Counted from the first letter of the whole stretch, positions 36,188-58,396 are shown. The stretch is DNA of 63,681 nt, filler included, from Collodictyon triciliatum (GCA_043381765.1; 11 parts of 11 records of this genome joined end to end with filler, not necessarily neighbours in it); one strand, 5' to 3'. A program made the numbers and translations. Notes: generated from the letters alone by a model not told the origin.

Positions 36188-36632
36188 TTCCTGCACCTGA
36201 TGGAAAACACAAGCCGTGACCCGTCGAAGACTTCACAAGTTGCAGCCAGTTCTTCTGGTTCCAACTCTGGTGCGAAAAACCCCGAGTTGCTCGTAAGTCT
36301 AGGAATACCCGTGCAAGAAAGCCGCTGCAAGTCTGTCTGATCGGACAGCTATTTTTTGTTTGGGGTCGAGCAAGTCGCTTACAAAACAAGAACAAGGCCC
36401 GCAGATTCACATGTGCGCTCGCCTCCTTCTTGAAAGCGAACAAACTTTGGGAAGAGTCCATCCAATTGCGCTTACCGGACAGCGAAGGCCTTTGCCTGAT
36501 CGCCTTCCGCACNNNNNNNNNNNNNNNNNNNNNNNNNNNNNNNNNNNNNNNNNNNNTTAATTAATTAANNNNNNNNNNNNNNNNNNNNNNNNNNNNNNNN
36601 NNNNNNNNNNNNAAAAAAAAAAAAAAAAAATG

Positions 36633-36774
36633 CACACACCTTTCTTTAAAAATCAGGCTGTCGGGTCTTTCCTGGAAGCCTTCACCACTACACAATCTTT
36701 GTGAAAAAAGTAGTGAGACCTTGGATACTAGCGCACCAGGTTTACCAGTCGAAAGAGTGGTATACCTTTTCTAG
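36633..36774 (+). ncRNA. Second copy of the Fanzor right end / candidate omegaRNA scaffold; no Fanzor ORF visible (upstream is an A-tract and the contig edge)
   Basis: 117/130 ungapped identity to 55460-55331 (-), then a shared TTCTAG end. Retains hairpins AGGCTGTCGGG-TCTTT-CCTGGAAGCCT and TACCAGTC-GAAA-GAGTGGTA. RNA function is inferred. Confidence 0.7.
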
Positions 36775-37012
36775 CCTGTGAAGTAAGTTCGAATAAAGGA
36801 GAAAAAAAAACCTGTAACGTAAATGAATTTGCTGCAAGCACGAGTGAATCACGAGATAAGAAACAAATAAAGCATGACCACGCAATAACAGAGGATGAAA
36901 AGAAATAGGGGTTCTCTTTCTTTCTTTCTTTTTTTCCAAGAAAACAGTAGAGTTAAAACAGTCACTCACGATCCTTTCTAACTTTGAAAACCCCCAACCC
37001 CAAAGCACCCCG

Positions 37013-52626: not shown

Positions 52627-52977
52627 GTCATTATCATTGTCATTATCATTGTCATTATCATTGTCATTATCATTGTCATTATCATTGTCATTATCATTGT
52701 CATTATCATTGTCATTATCATTGTCATTATCATTCTCATTCTCATTCTCATTCTCATTATCATTCTCATTATCATTCTCATTCTCATTCTCATTCTCATT
52801 CTCATTCTCATTCTCATTCTCATTCTCATTGTCATTATCATTGTCATTATCATTGTCATTATCATTGTCATTATCATTGTCATTCTCATTCTCATTGTCA
52901 TTATCATTATCATTATCATTATCATTATCATTATCATTATCATTATCATTATCATTATCATTATCATTATCATTATC
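52627..52977. repeat. Compound hexamer microsatellite ([A/G/C]TCATT)n
   Basis: Blocks of GTCATT-ATCATT, CTCATT and ATCATT units. Confidence 0.95.
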
Positions 52978-53170
52978 GTTTGCCCTTTTATAATCTGAAA
53001 ATTCGTTGCATTTTCCTCTCGTATGTATTTGATTCTCCCACTGATCTCCAGGCCAATTTTCTTAAGAATTTTCTATATAACAACTGCAAGCTACTATTGA
53101 AATGATACCTTGGCTCTTTGAATTTTTACACGTGTCGTTCTCTTTCTGTGCTTAACTCCTCTTTGCAGGA

Positions 53171-53271
<101 letters not shown>

Positions 53272-54025
53272 GTTTTATGAAAGAAAGGTTTAGATAACCT
53301 CGAAATATAATTTTAGGCTCGTCTATGCAGAGACCCCAAGGATATTTTTCTTTTCATGGATGCCAACCTTATTGGCCAAGTAAAGAAACTATCTCTCAAT
53401 TAATATAATTAGTGCTCGAACAATATCCATTCCTTTAATTTTTCTCCATTAGATAACTACTAAATAATGTCCACAAAAATCATGGATAACTCATATAATA
53501 TCCACAAGAAATTCATTCCGGAAAAGAAAAAGAAAAAGAAAAAGAAAAAGAAAAAGAAAAAGAAAAAGGACATAATATACAAGTTAAATATAAAAAAACC
53601 TCCCTCTTCCAGTATAAACCTTCGTCATGAATATTAAGTTTCTGTCCTCATCAATAGATGTGTGCATCATTTCATATCGCCTACGCCGAGTACTTAGAGC
53701 TCATTGGTGACTGCATGGGGGCCGCTAAAGTCTACAAACAAGGGATATCGTTGTATGATTCGTTCGAAATATTTGAGTTGCTATGAAGTATCCTCCAAAG
53801 ATTATAATTGGAACTGCAGTATAAAATAAAATAAAATAAAATAAAATATTAGAATCCATCACTTTTTTTTTATGGCCTTTATTTCCACCTGATTTCGGCT
53901 TCATGAAATACACGATGCAGAAAATCTTTTGTATCACCCCTATAGCTTAACTACATCGTGAAAACTACAGGAAAGCAACACCAGTCGATATTCTGACACG
54001 TCGACGCCATGATTTTCAAAAGCGT

Positions 54026-55178
54026 ATGGTGGAGTCATTAAAATCGGGTGGGTCATCTAGCAACATTCTGATGCAGGATAAAACCCCACGTTCCACAAAC
54101 CGAGTGGGTGACGAGAACCATTCAACAAGAGGTGAAGAGAATGGTAGTAGAACAAGCAACATCCAAGAAAAGAGACGTATAGCTCTCAATCCATTGTCTG
54201 ATGCCGAAGCTAAATCTCTTCATCGCCCATCCACACAAAGAGAATCGCTACCACTCTGTAAGAAAATATTGCTAACATAATACTAACTAAAATGTGACAC
54301 TTTTGAATCATTTTGTTTTTTCTTCCTGTTTCTATGTTTTTTTCATTAGGGAGAATGAGCTTCGAATTCCTACTTTTATTCAATTAATAGTGCACCTGAA
54401 TCTACATATTGCTTTAAATCAACATAATACATTCTTATCATCTCAACAAATTAAAATGACAGCAAACACAGAAGGCGCGACACTGAAGCATCAAAAGGTT
54501 TCCTTTGAGGTTTGTAATTCTCCTTTATCCCTGCAAGGGTGGATTCAGGGGACCCAAACCACTCCCAAAGTTGCGCCACAATCCTAGTTGATGATTAAGT
54601 CAAATATCTTAATCTCTAATCCACTCTATCTCGAGGGACTTGAGATCCAATGTTATGAAGGCAATAACAAATCATCTTCGGCAGAGGCTTTGTGGTTGCT
54701 GCTTTATATCTTTTTTTTTTTTTTTTTTTTGCCAGAATCCTCATTATAGCTTCCCCTTTTAAGATATACTCTGAACCTGCAACCATGGAAGAGCAGCCCA
54801 AATGGACAAACCTCCCACCAATGACCGAGCGGACCAAGGAGAATGACGGGGTTGCAGTTCCCATGGCCGGGCAGACTGTGAGTCCGTCACAAGTGCAACA
54901 AGCAATATTTCCGATTAGACGAGTTAAATTTTCATCAACATTTTCTCTCTTTCTCTTTCTCTTTTTCTTTCCCTTTCTCTTTCTCTTTCTCTTTCTCTTT
55001 CTCTTTCTCTTTCTCTTTCTCTTTCTCTTTCTCTTTCTCTTTCTCTTTCTCTTTCTCTTTCTCTTTCTCTCTCTCAAACTAGATTGATGCTGGACTTAAA
55101 CACCGTCCTGCCTACAACGCACCTGCGGAGCCAGTGGGTTTATCAAGAGGCGGATTCCGCGTGATGGAGGACTCATGA
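54026..55178 (+). CDS. Small uncharacterised hydrophilic multi-exon gene, convergent with the Fanzor element
   Basis: MVESLKSGG...LPL|, ANTEGATLKHQKVSFE|, IYSEPATMEEQPKW...AGQT|, IDAGLKHRPAYNAPAEPVGLSRGGFRVMEDS*, with GT-AG boundaries. Confidence 0.5.
54945..55074. repeat. (CTCTTT)n intronic microsatellite
   Basis: Direct reading. Confidence 0.95.
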
Positions 55179-55321
55179 CCGCCAGAGACACCTCGCCATT
55201 GCAGGCTCTGCCGATTCCTTTGCCTGCTATTTGCACATAAAGCGAAACATAAACCACAGAGAATTCCAAACATTCGTTGCTTTCGAGTGGCGCTATGTTT
55301 TGGTTTGCTTCTTTTAGATGA

Positions 55322-55460
55322 CTAGAAGTATACCAATCTTTCGATTGGTAAACCTGGTGCGCTAGTATCCAAGGTCTCGCCACTTTTTTCACAAAGATAG
55401 TCCAGTGGTGTAGGCTGCCAGGAAAGACCCGACAGCCTGTTTTTTAGAGGAAGGTGTATG
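55322..55460 (-). ncRNA. Fanzor element right end / candidate omegaRNA scaffold
   Basis: Directly 3' of the Fanzor RuvC-III. Contains an 11-bp hairpin AGGCTGTCGGG/CCTGGCAGCCT, a CCACT/AGTGG stem, a CCTTGG/CCAGG stem and a perfect TACCAATC-GAAA-GATTGGTA hairpin, then TACTTCTAG. Duplicated at 36633-36774. Confidence 0.75.
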
Positions 55461-55474
55461 AATATTTTGAAGGA

Positions 55475-57329
55475 TTAAAAGAACTTTCTGAGTAGATTTT
55501 TAGCGCTGTTAAAGTCCTTTGTCAAGAATACACTTTGTTTGCTTTTTGAGTGATTACATTCTTTACATATTAGACATTTATACATCTTTTGAACTTTCCA
55601 TTCGGCGTTATATATTCCAGTTCTTTTTCGCAGGTAAAACACATCTCGAGGTTCTTAATTCATTTACACTAACTGTTTCAAAACGTTTGGATTGTATTTT
55701 TTATAACCCTCTTCCGATTGTTGGCATAAAATGTTTCATCTGAGATTTTCTGCTCCTGTCTCCATACGCTAGTACAACATCCTTGCCAAATGTCTTTTCG
55801 ATTCGGTCCACAAACAATAGTTCACTTCTTTTTGTATTAGCATAATGTCTCCATCTCATCTTTCGAAAAGTTACGTGTTCATAAAATCCGGAAAATTCTA
55901 TCTGGTATCTTGATTTCATAGATACATATTTTTGAAATTTTTCATAATCGGCCGCGCATGAATTATGTTTACACAGTTCTGTCTCTAAATCGATTAAAGA
56001 TACTTTTGATGTCCCAAACTGCTGATTCTCTTTAAAAGTCATGAGACCAAAAGAAACAACACTTTGTAAACCCGTTGCTATGCATATCCTTGAAAAATTG
56101 TACTTTTCTTTATCGCGCAAGAGTGTATTTTGTGATTTTTAAAGAGATTTGCTATCATGTCTTCTTTGGTGTATCTTGTAACGTAATTTCTTACCTTTCT
56201 CATCCACCATGTAAACCATATTAAACTTACCAGCGTTCACTCTAGCTATTTTTTTGCCGCTAATAAAGTTAACTACTCTTCGGAAAGCTCATCTATAAAC
56301 ACATTCTTCGGTTGTTTGATTATATTTGAATTTTGAATCTGAAATACCTTTCTTTTTCAAACAATAATGACACCGCCAAGCCGTCTCTTTGTATCATGTA
56401 TTTAAAATTGTAGTCTCTTTGATGAAATACCCTCTTCATTTCAAAGAACTCATCCCATAGTGTTTATGCATCCTGATATATCCTTCATGAGTGATGTTTT
56501 CCCCAGTTGATACTAATAAATTTATCAAATATGCAGTATCTAGAGTAATATGAAATGGTGTATTGGTTAGTTCTTACAGAGATTGGTTGAAGCAGTTTGG
56601 CTCCAATGTCCTCAAAAATGCGATTCATGTAAATCAGACATGCAATATACTTATTTGGATTGACTTTGACGTCATATTCGATACCATTTACAATATTGCT
56701 GGGAATGATACCATGCAAATGCGTTATAGCCCATCCTTTATCTTGTTCCGGTATTTCGAGATTCTTGAAGATGACTTTTTCAACTTTTGTAACTCTGCCT
56801 TTTTAATAGCTTCTGTAATATTCTCATCTTTAGGAACTATTTGATTTATAAAGCGCAGAAACCTCTTTGCAAAATGTTCCTTAACATTACTATGATAAGC
56901 TGTTAACATTTGATCGCAAGGTACAGTAATACAAGAGACAGTCCAACCAACGGAAAGCGCTCTTCTCGAGATAAAAAGAATCGAAAATTATTGATATAAA
57001 AAGTCATCATATCATCTCTCATATCTGGGTTTTTTTTAAATCTTGTGGGTCTACCTTGTGAAACTACTCCGACCGCCTTTAAAGCATACAAATTAAAACA
57101 AAAAAAAACTACTTTTCATCGATTGTTGGGAGCTGTTGTGATTTCAATGTGTAACATCTTGCAGACAGATAAGTGTCGGTAACCAAATTATAATGCAATA
57201 AAACCGCATCGTTGGTTTTTCATAGTCATCCGAATTCTTTACAATCGACTTTAGAGACGTTTTCACATTTCGTTAGTGTAGTTTTACAGACTTGAGATTC
57301 TCAGACTCAAGGCGATTTCTTTTCTTCAT
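55475..57329 (-). pseudogene. Fanzor1 (TnpB/Cas12-like RNA-guided endonuclease), intronless, multiple frameshifts and stops
   Basis: Pieced across frames: VKTSLKSIVKN; LPTIDE; NVKEHFAKRFLRFIN; YDVKVNPNKY...YMN; KLLQPISVRTN; IQRDG; RuvC-I VNAGKFNMVYMVDEKGKKLRY (DPGK decayed); FRKMRWRHY; IEKTFGKDVVLAYGDRSRKSQMKHFMPTIGRGL; RuvC-II VNELRTSRC; RuvC-III VFLTKDFNSAKNL. Confidence 0.88.
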
Positions 57330-58396
57330 TTGAAAGTCTTTGCTTTACTTTTTCCTTTAGAAAACTACCGAGTTTTCGATTTTAATAAAACTTAAGTCAT
57401 TTAGTCAATTAAAAAAAAATAACAACAGCATAAAGTCAATTATGAAAAATTAAGCATCTGCCGAATCTTTCAAAATGTGCGCTTTGTGGCAAACAGACAC
57501 ATATAATTTTTAGAAGTGATTTGAGACAAAACGCTGAGAGCCGATTCGACGAGTTCGAAAGGACAGCTGTATAGTCATTGCGACTGAAAGTTAACATATC
57601 GACCCCAAACAACATGATTACCGCCGCAAGTGCGGATAGTATGCTTTTTTGAAATGTATGCTTGGTGGCAGGTATATAGAATGGGTTCTGTCAGGGCCAA
57701 GGCAAAGGCTTGTTTGTAATTTTTAATTTTAATGATATTATTACATAAATGAGAATACATATAAATTGATTACATGAATATAATGAGATTGTTAAGTATT
57801 TTCAATCTTATTATATATACTAACATACTATTATATTATTCAGGTTGTCTCTTGGATTCGTCAAACCTCCTGGTTTCGTTCATCCAGATTTAATTCGATG
57901 GTTGTCTGTGCAATAAATTGCTATATATGGGTACGCTTTCGTTGTATAAAAAGTGTTGTGCCTAAAAGGGATAAACCCAAGTTCGTCACAACCTTTGTAA
58001 TGAAGTTTATTTAGTCACAGGCTAAATGAAACCGTAGAAAAAAGAAAAAAGAAAAAAGAAAAAGGAAAAAAGAAAAAAGAAAAAAGAAAAAAGAAAAAAG
58101 ANNNNNNNNNNNNNNNNNNNNNNNNNNNNNNNNNNNNNNNNNNNNTTAATTAATTAANNNNNNNNNNNNNNNNNNNNNNNNNNNNNNNNNNNNNNNNNNN
58201 NAAAAAGAAAAAAAGAAAAAAAGAAAAAAAGAAAAAAAGAAAAAAAGAAAAAAAGAAAAAAAGAAAAAAAGAAAAAAGAAAAAAGAAAAAAAGAAAAAAA
58301 GAAAAAGAAAAAAAGAAAAAGAAAAAAAGAAAAAGAAAAAAAGAAAAAAGAAACAAAAGAAACAAAAGCCAAAACATTTGAGGGATAAAAGAGGTA

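What the first reader, a model, noticed from the sequence alone, without database searches (positions are those of the whole stretch)
36633..36795. Second omegaRNA-like copy defines the scaffold/guide boundary and a different candidate guide
Seen: 36633-36762 (+) matches 55460-55331 (-) at 117/130 positions without gaps. After a 3-nt indel both end in TTCTAG and then diverge completely: CCTGTGAAGTAAGTTCGAAT here versus TCATCTAAAAGAAGCAAACC in the Fanzor copy. A constant scaffold followed by a variable flank is the expected omegaRNA architecture. The middle stem is kept in a shifted register (CACTAC/GTAGTG versus CCACT/AGTGG), and GGTCT/AGACC could form a pseudoknot in both. This copy lies ~240 bp upstream of the threonine aldolase ATG, in the same orientation. 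Inference: it is either a non-autonomous guide-donor locus acting in trans or the tail of another Fanzor copy lost at the contig edge; an A-tract and the linker hide the upstream sequence.
Basis: partly seen in the sequence, partly recalled or inferred. Interest (0 to 1): 0.85.

Follow-up and report, generated by a model that had tools for sequence, protein, structure and literature searches.

The report
Leftover right end of Fanzor transposon
This stretch is the tail end of a second, cut-off and decaying copy of a Fanzor-type jumping gene, carrying the family's likely guide-RNA module; it marks where the element ends, but nothing shows that it works.

Summary
36625-36774(+) matches 55468-55322(-) at 88% over 150 nt (E 1.5e-50); 36633-36762 is 117/130. 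After a 3-nt indel both copies end in TTCTAG, and the flanks are then random (12/40).

The window is about 11 small contigs joined by N linkers, so the two copies lie on different contigs.

Copy B follows a Fanzor1 pseudogene with frameshifts, in-frame stops and RuvC-I D->N.

The shared block has two parts:
- The last 24 Fanzor codons plus the stop. An intact 648-aa relative reads the same tail in frame.
- About 70 nt of non-coding right end, closing in a 12-bp GAAA-capped hairpin. This matches the layout of the SpuFz1 omegaRNA.

cDNA-like contigs from two runs hold roughly 10 and 8 further diverged copies. Every flank printed for these copies differs, and each starts within a few bases of the same end, so the boundary is real.

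Copy A's homology stops at an A-tract 18 nt before the scaffold edge, and it carries private stem-breaking changes. It is most likely a truncated relic, not a proven guide donor.

No covariation can be tested with two copies. A covariance model from giant-virus relatives, whose own 3' RNA does covary, does not recognise it. ORF-less "ghost" Fanzor loci are already published, so this is a new member of a known kind.

The parts
36613..36630 (+). A-tract (18 A) at the very start of the scaffold piece. Homology to copy B fades here.
   Evidence: X2 contigs also show A-runs just upstream of the element in other copies (table 7).
36630..36704 (+). Remnant of the Fanzor C-terminal coding tail: 24 codons (MHTPFFKNQAVGSFLEAFTTTQSL) plus TGA at 36702-36704.
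   Evidence: It is in the same frame and has the same stop as copy B (IHTPSSKKQAVGSFLAAYTTGLSL*). The intact relatives P0001, P0121 and P0122 read ..KIPHTKLFKKQAVGYSS.. in frame with RuvC-III.
36654..36681 (+). Stem 1 hairpin inside the coding tail. In copy B it has 11 bp including two G.U pairs. In copy A it is broken by C->A at 36676.
   Evidence: Folds. It has 1 substitution in 28 nt between the copies. At 36676 the other copies mostly read C (10 X1 contigs and 8 X2 contigs).
36705..36774 (+). 70-nt non-coding right-end module, the omegaRNA-scaffold candidate, ending in TTCTAG.
   Evidence: There are 2 substitutions in 36716-36765. The layout parallels SpuFz1's 75 nt between stop codon and IR.
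36739..36766 (+). Terminal hairpin GGTTTACCAGTC-GAAA-GAGTGGTATACC. It has 12 bp with one U.U mismatch in both copies and an extra G.G (36748/36757) in copy A.
   Evidence: (predicted in all sense folds).
36775..36794 (+). Flanking DNA of insertion A. It would be the guide segment if an omegaRNA is made here.
   Evidence: It is unrelated to copy B's flank (12/40 identical). No contig was listed or printed with this flank, which does not show absence.
55322..55468 (-). Copy B of the same terminal module: coding tail, stop at 55391-55389, and a 67-nt non-coding right end.
55389..57329 (-). Fanzor1 pseudogene. Its pieces lie in three frames, it has in-frame stops, and RuvC-I reads D->N.
   Evidence: frames. 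(tblastn of P0001, 57329-55404, E 3e-89; KLH*RN, GRGL*KI, VGVDPGK against ARVNAGK). (family profile against the Fanzor1 structures PpFz1, SpuFz1 and GtFz1, E 3e-58 to 2e-46).
55302..55321 (-). Flanking DNA of insertion B, the candidate guide of copy B.
37014..39959 (+). Neighbouring spliced gene of the Beta_elim_lyase (threonine-aldolase type) family. It is not part of the element.
   Evidence: (GT..AG joints; poly-A loose end at 39959).

Best explanation
Copy A is the right-end remnant of a second insertion of the same Fanzor1-type transposon family that left the pseudogene at 55389-57329(-). It keeps the last 24 codons of the Fanzor gene, the stop codon and the ~70-nt non-coding terminal module. 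In Fanzor1 elements that module is the template for the omegaRNA scaffold. The element ends at ..TTCTAG (36774), and what follows is simply the DNA of the insertion site. By the known Fanzor/TnpB mechanism (inferred here, not shown), transcription reading out of the right end would attach 15-20 nt of that flank to the scaffold as a guide. Upstream, the homology gives way to an A-tract 18 nt before the scaffold edge, so the copy is truncated or interrupted rather than merely cut by the assembly. It carries private changes that break two predicted stems. It is therefore most likely a decaying relic that marks the element boundary, not an active guide locus.
For: 1. The match is far beyond chance: 88% over 150 nt, E 1.5e-50.
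2. The partner element is a Fanzor1. The 145-aa piece hits P0001 at 57% identity, E 2e-45. P0001 aligns along 57329-55404. The profile of 37 family members hits the PpFz1, SpuFz1 and GtFz1 structures at E 3e-58, 1.6e-56 and 1.8e-46.
3. The first half of the block is coding tail. P0001, P0121 and P0122 read ..KKQAVG.. in frame. Copies A and B keep that frame and the same TGA.
4. The boundary is sharp. The A and B flanks are 12/40 identical. Contigs from runs X1 and X2 include pieces spliced at GT..AG introns of the neighbouring gene, so those pieces at least are RNA-derived. They hold further copies, judged from the contig counts at variant 36676 (10 in X1, 8 in X2). The six loose ends printed behind 36747-36774 give six different flank strings; the two printed behind 36698 are alike.
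5. The layout equals that of SpuFz1: a 75-nt scaffold between stop codon and 3' IR plus a 14-15-nt guide. The GtFz1 omegaRNA overlaps 17 codons (PMC10432273, section 7 read).
6. The giant-virus relatives (38-47% protein identity) have a conserved ~80-nt 3' region ending sharply at GGTGTAA. Its terminal stem covaries: 94.2% of cells paired against 86.3% when shuffled, 0 of 500 shuffles as high.
7. Substitutions between A and B avoid stem 1 (1/28) and the 3' module (2/50) and pile up in the other blocks (11/57). Fisher p is 0.008, with the blocks chosen post hoc.
8. Signs of decay in copy A: 36676 A where 10 X1 and 8 X2 contigs read C; the A-U pair at 36748/36757 has become G.G; the tail has 1 synonymous against 8 non-synonymous codon differences.
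Against: - No RNA of defined size, strand or ends was seen. The runs are assembled contigs of 385-500 nt, not small-RNA reads, and DNA carry-over in the element contigs cannot be excluded.
- With two sequences there is no covariation: 0 compensatory changes among 13 substitutions. Sense and antisense strands fold about equally well (-35.8 against -38.9 and -41.5 against -40.6 kcal/mol). The z-scores of the 70-nt module are modest, -1.2 for copy A and -2.2 for copy B.
- The covariance model built from the viral relatives' 3' RNA finds neither copy. There were 25 matches at E<=10, none at 36625-36774 or 55322-55468, and the best was E 0.77 elsewhere.
- The conserved end could be kept at the DNA level as a transposase-binding terminus.
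- No left end or inverted-repeat partner was found in the window.
- The only Fanzor gene in the window is dead.
- What lies upstream of the A-tract is unknown because the scaffold starts there.
Confidence: 0.7

Rival explanations
1. Copy A belongs to an ORF-less, non-autonomous 'ghost' derivative: an A-tract followed by about 145 nt of right end. This derivative would be amplified in the genome and transcribed, and it would supply guides in trans to Fanzor protein made from intact copies elsewhere.
For: Homology to the Fanzor-linked copy stops at the A-tract, not at the scaffold edge. Three X2 contigs from other copies also have A-runs immediately upstream of the same point. Their loose ends before 36655 and 36656 read A13-CCTCACCC-A8T (2 contigs) and AAAAATGCACACACC.. 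(1 contig). Many diverged copies appear in cDNA-like contigs. There is a precedent: 134 ORF-less ghost Spu-1 loci keep the omegaRNA-like 3' region in S. punctatus (PMC10432273, section 7).
Against: Only 30-nt loose-end consensus strings are visible, so the shared A-run is thinly documented. Copy A has stem-breaking private changes. No contig was listed or printed with copy A's own flank. No intact Fanzor gene is known in this genome, since the only copy in the window is dead. No left end was seen.
Confidence: 0.12
2. Copy A is the 3' end of a full-length (intact or decayed) Fanzor copy whose ORF lies beyond the assembly break. On this reading the A-tract is either an assembly artefact or a short insertion or expansion inside the gene.
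For: Repeats break short-read assemblies, and copy A starts exactly at a scaffold start. The coding tail is kept in frame with the same stop. The genome is full of long A/T homopolymer runs (one search hits; K- and F-runs), so an expansion at the CAAAATA site of copy B is conceivable.
Against: The 18 bases before 36631 are pure A. Copy B has ..TTTTAATCCTTCAAAATA there instead. A-runs at the same point occur in other copies.
Confidence: 0.15
3. The conserved block is not an RNA gene at all. It would be the gene's 3' end plus a DNA-level transposon terminus (a transposase-binding end), kept alike only because the insertions are recent.
For: Any two insertions of a transposon share sequence up to the terminus and then diverge. 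There is no compensatory change and no strand asymmetry in folding energy. The viral-relative RNA model does not match. In the viral relatives the RNA's 3' end coincides with a terminal inverted repeat: 34 nt and perfect in L058, and a left-end partner in 44 of 76 loci. DNA-level function and RNA-level function are therefore confounded.
Against: Fanzor1 proteins with solved structures use exactly this region as omegaRNA. In the viral relatives the terminal stem keeps G.U pairs and double changes. Stem 1 of copy B has two G.U pairs that would be C.A mismatches on the other strand. Substitution density is uneven.
Confidence: 0.15

Closest known systems
SpuFz1 (Spizellomyces punctatus Fanzor1) omegaRNA and Spu-1 element (Saito et al. 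2023, PMC10432273; PDB 8GKH)
   Same: The protein family is the same: the profile of the window's family hits 8gkh at E 1.6e-56 over its full length. [quoted passage not shown] In both, the variable flank starts directly after it, and the published scaffolds end ..CACTA followed by variable bases.
   Different: No sequence similarity to the SpuFz1 scaffold is evident from reading supplementary file 4. No 30-nt inverted repeat pair was found here. No small-RNA data or TAM exist for this element. The linked gene is a pseudogene.
Ghost Spu-1 loci (ORF-less elements keeping IRs and the omegaRNA-like region; 134 loci in S. punctatus)
   Same: Both are copies of the right-end omegaRNA-like module without a contiguous Fanzor ORF directly upstream.
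   Different: Ghost loci are defined by two IRs around a ~550-nt conserved core. Here the upstream part is an A-tract and then the scaffold edge, so neither a left end nor a core can be checked.
GtFz1 (Guillardia theta Fanzor1) and ISDra2 TnpB omegaRNAs that overlap the ORF 3' end
   Same: A predicted, well-kept hairpin (stem 1, 36654-36681) lies within the last 17 codons. The scaffold may therefore overlap the coding tail, as in GtFz1, where the overlap is 17 aa.
   Different: The overlap here is only inferred from conservation and folding. No RNA ends are known.
[quoted passage not shown]
   Same: The proteins are homologous at 38-47% identity to P0001. Both have a conserved ~80-nt 3' region with a sharp end, a shared GAAAAAGT..AGACC-like start, and a G(A/G)TTT(T)AC / GGT(G/A)TA-type closing stem.
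   Different: The viral RNA has a long terminal stem enclosing an inner hairpin and ends in GGTGTAA inside a 34-nt TIR. The window's version has a simple 12-bp GAAA hairpin followed by T-rich CTAG. The viral covariance model does not detect it.

Membership tests
Fanzor1 / OMEGA omegaRNA (right-end guide RNA) | Lies at or overlaps the 3' end of a Fanzor/TnpB ORF, on the same strand | tested here: met
   Copy B follows the Fanzor1 pseudogene on the same strand. Copy A keeps the last 24 codons and the stop in frame, but nothing further upstream.
Fanzor1 / OMEGA omegaRNA (right-end guide RNA) | The associated protein is a Fanzor1 (RuvC plus zinc ribbon) homologue | tested here: met
   The family profile hits PpFz1, SpuFz1 and GtFz1 at E 3e-58, 1.6e-56 and 1.8e-46. 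The window gene aligns to P0001 at E 3e-89. It is a pseudogene, and RuvC-I reads D->N.
Fanzor1 / OMEGA omegaRNA (right-end guide RNA) | A constant scaffold ends sharply at the transposon right end, and the flank differs between copies | tested here: met
   (flanks 12/40 identical). The six loose ends printed behind 36747-36774 give six different flank strings.
Fanzor1 / OMEGA omegaRNA (right-end guide RNA) | Conserved secondary structure supported by covariation | tested here: inconclusive
   Only two full sequences are available, with 0 compensatory changes among 13 substitutions. One X2 variant keeps the CCAATC/GATTGG stem with a different loop (a consensus string only). Viral relatives do covary, but their model does not match here.
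Fanzor1 / OMEGA omegaRNA (right-end guide RNA) | A discrete transcript made of the scaffold plus ~14-20 nt of flank | not testable with these tools
   Only assembled contigs of cDNA-like runs were on offer. Contigs cannot show RNA ends or strand.
Fanzor1 / OMEGA omegaRNA (right-end guide RNA) | The RNA binds the nuclease and directs TAM-dependent DNA cleavage | not testable with these tools
   This needs biochemistry. No TAM can be derived because no left end was found.
3' RNA of the giant-virus Fanzor1 clade (model R1 built here) | Significant match to the covariance model of sequence plus structure | tested here: not met
   cmsearch with filters off over the whole window gave 25 matches at E<=10. 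None overlaps 36625-36774 or 55322-55468.
Ghost (ORF-less) Fanzor element as in S. punctatus | Both terminal inverted repeats present around a short ORF-less core | not testable with these tools
   The scaffold starts 18 nt upstream of the homology. No genome is held. The one sequencing-run search and the one read-laying run were already used.
Any Rfam family | Match at gathering score | tested here: not met
   The window has 0 matches at gathering score. Only chance-level hits appear at E<=5 around copy B.

The most novel reading that the evidence does not exclude
The genome holds an amplified, transcribed family of ORF-less mini-elements. Each would consist of an A-tract followed by ~145 nt of Fanzor right end carrying a compact ~70-nt omegaRNA scaffold, and each would sit beside a different flank. 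Together they would act as a dispersed natural guide library, used in trans by Fanzor1 protein from a few intact master copies. Copy A would be one, possibly fading, member.
Probability: 0.1. Interest if true: 0.6.

Novelty: new member of a known kind. Interest (0 to 1): 0.3.

Why it matters
The copy fixes the right-end boundary of an undescribed Fanzor1 element family in a eukaryotic genome. It also delimits a compact candidate omegaRNA scaffold: about 70 nt after the stop codon, possibly extended by a hairpin inside the last 17 codons. Anyone wishing to test the intact relative (P0001 or P0122, 648 aa) as an RNA-guided nuclease would need exactly that boundary. Biologically it adds one more case of Fanzor right ends persisting without their gene, which is already documented as 'ghost' loci. 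In this window both the gene and this copy look dead, so the finding is useful annotation rather than a surprise.

Tried and rejected
A genome-wide copy census was therefore impossible.
- Pfam found nothing in the gene fragments. On P0001 it found only a sub-threshold Cas12f1-like TNB hit (E 0.11). NCBIfam found nothing.
- Scans with P0001 as a single protein found no relatives in viral contigs (36 stretches matched a pattern, none confirmed) or in genome contigs (53 stretches, none confirmed).
- Exact or degenerate DNA patterns from the window's module gave 0 matches: 0 in metagenome contigs (a 26-mer and a hairpin pattern) and 0 in viral contigs (an 18-mer). BLASTN of copies A and B against the 80 viral loci gave no hit at E<=0.01. 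No more copies of the window-type RNA could be collected, so no covariation test or model of it was possible.
- Sequencing runs: no RNA holder is listed on record. The three runs are small-share holders from one study. No contig was listed or printed with copy A's own flank, and several bins of the stretch had no cover. Neither point says anything about expression of copy A.
I then laid the first part of copy A's scaffold only, 36614-42093.
- An inverted-repeat search of the Fanzor contig and a search for a partner of the right-end 17-mer with up to 3 mismatches found no left-end TIR. The single extra hit at 49615 lies on another contig and has 3 mismatches.
GGTCT lies partly inside stem 1, the middle block is the most variable part, and the two copies fold differently there.
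- Text search of the 8 supplementary files of PMC10432273 for five motifs of this family found nothing. Wrapped or cut sequence cells could hide matches. The two PDF supplements could not be read.
- Rfam at E<=5 gave only chance-level hits for copy B and for the viral locus L058.

Full report
**What the window is.** The 63,681-base window is not one stretch of chromosome. It holds ten linkers of the form N44-TTAATTAATTAA-N44 and one 836-N gap. These cut it into about 11 pieces, most of them ~5.48 kb long. Copy A (36625-36774, + strand) sits at the very start of the piece 36613-46945. Copy B sits on the separate piece 52627-58101.

**Check of the observation.**
- BLASTN aligns 36625-36774(+) with 55468-55322(-) at 88% over 150 columns (15 mismatches, 1 gap, E 1.5e-50). 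It finds no third copy in the window.
- In 36633-36762 there are 13 substitutions, so 117/130 is exact.
- A 3-nt indel lies at 36766-36768, and both copies then read TTCTAG.
- The next 40 nt are 12/40 identical, which is unrelated.
- The gene downstream on the + strand is a spliced Beta_elim_lyase (threonine-aldolase type) gene. The ATG of its first open frame lies about 240 nt past 36774.

**The gene next to copy B.**
- The - strand from 57329 to about 55400 aligns with a 648-aa database protein, P0001 (tblastn E 3e-89). The best-kept 145-aa piece is 57% identical to P0001 (E 2e-45).
- A profile of 37 family members hits the solved Fanzor1 proteins: PpFz1 at 3.1e-58, SpuFz1 at 1.6e-56 over its full length, and GtFz1 at 1.8e-46. 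The family is therefore Fanzor1.
- The window's gene is dead. Its homologous pieces lie in all three frames (by my reading against P0001, at least eight frame changes).
- Well-aligned blocks contain stop codons (KLH*RN, GRGL*KI). The RuvC-I motif VGVDPGK reads ARVNAGK.

**What the shared 150 nt consists of.**
- The intact relatives P0001, P0121 and P0122 all continue past the RuvC-III motif as ..NNALSILKIPHTKLFKKQAVGYSSTALTVTHKRMRM.
- Copy B reads IHTPSSKKQAVGSFLAAYTTGLSL* in the matching frame. Copy A reads MHTPFFKNQAVGSFLEAFTTTQSL*. Both use the same TGA, at 55391-55389 and 36702-36704.
Only the last 70 nt (copy A) or 67 nt (copy B) are non-coding.
- Between A and B the tail shows 1 synonymous and 8 non-synonymous codon differences, so there is no coding constraint, as expected for dead copies.

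**The boundary, and more copies.** One search of public runs gave three coded runs from one study. I laid them on 36614-42093 at 80% likeness or better.
- Contigs from X1 and X2 join the neighbouring gene's exons across GT..AG introns with 0-1 differences. Some of their loose ends are a poly-A run or look like library adapters (my reading). They are therefore at least partly cDNA from the same species or a very close one.
- The bin 36614-36796 collects many diverged contigs. At variant 36676, 10 contigs in X1 and 8 in X2 carry the other letter. The listed pieces differ from the window at 8-16 positions per ~100-120 nt.
- The six loose ends printed behind 36747-36774 give six different flank strings. 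The four whose junction can be read continue after ..TTCTAG, ..TTTTAG or ..CCTTTT with TAGAACCG.., TCA.., TATACTTATAG.. and AAGCATCATT... Two further ends, printed behind 36698, are alike.
- The element end at or within about 4 nt of 36774 is therefore real, and the family is multi-copy. None of the listed or printed contigs carries copy A's own flank; contigs show presence, not absence.
- Whether the element contigs come from RNA or from carried-over DNA cannot be proved.

**Is it an omegaRNA module?** The architecture fits published Fanzor1 systems. I read section 7 and supplementary file 4 of PMC10432273.
- In GtFz1 the omegaRNA overlaps 17 codons of the ORF.

The sense-strand folds predict these features:
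- A 12-bp terminal hairpin, GGTTTACC-AGTC-GAAA-GAGT-GGTATACC (36739-36766), followed by T-rich CTAG.
- A hairpin inside the coding tail (36654-36681). In copy B it has 11 bp, including two G.U pairs that would be C.A mismatches on the other strand.

Substitutions between A and B spare these two modules and cluster elsewhere:

| Block | Substitutions |
|---|---|
| 5' part (36631-36653) | 5/23 |
| Stem 1 (36654-36681) | 1/28 |
| Middle (36682-36715) | 6/34 |
| 3' module (36716-36765) | 2/50 |

Fisher's test on the two spared blocks against the other two gives p = 0.008, but the blocks were chosen post hoc. The variant positions among the run contigs also concentrate in 36685-36714.

Evidence against:
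- None of the 13 substitutions is compensatory.
- The pair 36748/36757 changed on both sides, but to G.G.
- Sense and antisense strands fold about equally well.
- The z-scores of the 70-nt module are only -1.2 (copy A) and -2.2 (copy B).
- Rfam has no match.
I reject both.

**Relatives elsewhere.**
- P0001's family has 244 database members at E<=1e-3.
- In IMG/VR, 432 of 598 candidate stretches encode relatives. Of these, 80 loci were kept, many labelled as giant-virus MAGs, at 38-47% identity.
- In 76 of the 78 loci with a stop codon, the ~80 nt after the stop are conserved and end at ..AAAGGTGTA(A), after which the flanks diverge completely.
- The closing stem covaries. Of the cells, 94.2% are paired against 86.3% in shuffles. 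The covariation score is 0.233 against 0.133, and 0 of 500 shuffles reach it. Six of 15 pairs have double changes.
- So this Fanzor1 clade does carry a structured RNA-like right end. [quoted passage not shown]
- A covariance model built from 63 viral sequences (R1) finds neither window copy. With filters off there were 25 hits at E<=10, all elsewhere, the best at E 0.77.
- By eye, the window's module looks like a shortened version: GAAAAA(A)GT..AGACC at the start and a GGTTTACC/GGTATACC closing stem. That is a resemblance, not a test.
- No closer DNA relatives could be fetched.

**Stand-alone copy or cut-off gene?**
- Copy A's similarity to copy B runs to about 36627-36631. The 18 bases from there to the scaffold edge are pure A, where copy B has ..TTTTAATCCTTCAAAATA.
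- A colinear Fanzor gene merely cut by the assembly should show ORF sequence up to the edge. It does not.
- Two loose-end consensus strings from X2, covering three contigs, show other copies with A-runs at the same point. This hints at a truncated or interrupted subfamily, either ghost-like or carrying a poly-A-ended insertion.
- Only 30 nt of each loose end is visible, so the hint is weak.
- Copy A also has A at 36676 where 10 X1 and 8 X2 contigs read C. That change breaks stem 1, and there is also the G.G mismatch in the terminal hairpin.
- ORF-less Fanzor 'ghost' loci that keep the omegaRNA-like region are already described: 134 in S. punctatus.

**Verdict.**
- Copy A is the right-end remnant of another insertion of a Fanzor1-type transposon. 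It fixes the element/flank boundary and delimits a plausible compact omegaRNA scaffold.
- The 'guide' is simply the insertion-site flank.
- Function as an RNA, and any trans-acting role, are inferred from family knowledge and not shown here.
- The gene in the window is dead, and copy A itself looks decayed.
- This is a new member of a known kind and of modest interest.

Noticed in passing
window, whole; linkers for example at 36513-36612: The window is a chain of about 11 small contigs or scaffolds joined by N44-TTAATTAATTAA-N44 linkers, plus one 836-N gap at 42094-42929. Distances and neighbourhoods across linkers therefore mean nothing.
   Followed up: yes
L058:2021-4414 and 43 other IMG/VR loci: The giant-virus Fanzor1 relatives sit in compact elements. 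In L058 the TIRs are 34 nt and perfect. A left-end partner with at most 4 mismatches in 24 nt occurs in 44 of 76 loci, and 30 of those 44 elements measure 2358-2403 bp. The ends read TTACACC...GGTGTAA, which looks like TA-flanked Tc1/mariner-style termini. The omegaRNA-like 3' stem coincides with the right TIR.
   Followed up: partly
L058:2118-2385 (+), and aligned upstream regions of other loci: A small conserved ORF of about 88 aa (..KKYTAPKRSKTYYENHKEE..; lysine- and glutamate-rich, which I guess to be coiled-coil) lies between the left TIR and the Fanzor gene in many viral elements. Its function is unknown. No counterpart was seen upstream of the window's pseudogene.
   Followed up: partly
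viral loci, about 25 nt before to 20 nt after the stop codon (A3 columns 25-60): The motif GAAAAAGTAAGACCATC is kept whether it is coding (EEKVRPS*, or EKVGQSVDF.. where the ORF reads on) or lies past the stop. A GTAGG/CCTAC hairpin that holds the TAG stop is present, or cleanly absent, as a unit. This suggests RNA-level rather than protein-level constraint on the ORF end.
   Followed up: partly
window 52627-53300, 54900-55090, 58040-58101 and elsewhere: The genome is rich in long homopolymer and microsatellite tracts: A/T runs of up to ~100 nt, (GAG/AAG)n, and (GAT/AAT)n that reads as NDNDND. Such tracts probably cause the fragmented assembly and the break at the A-tract beside copy A.
   Followed up: no
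window 40111-41073 (-): X1 contigs show a second spliced gene on the minus strand downstream of the aldolase gene, with CT..AC joints at 40427-40716 and 40811-40954. It was not characterised.
   Followed up: no
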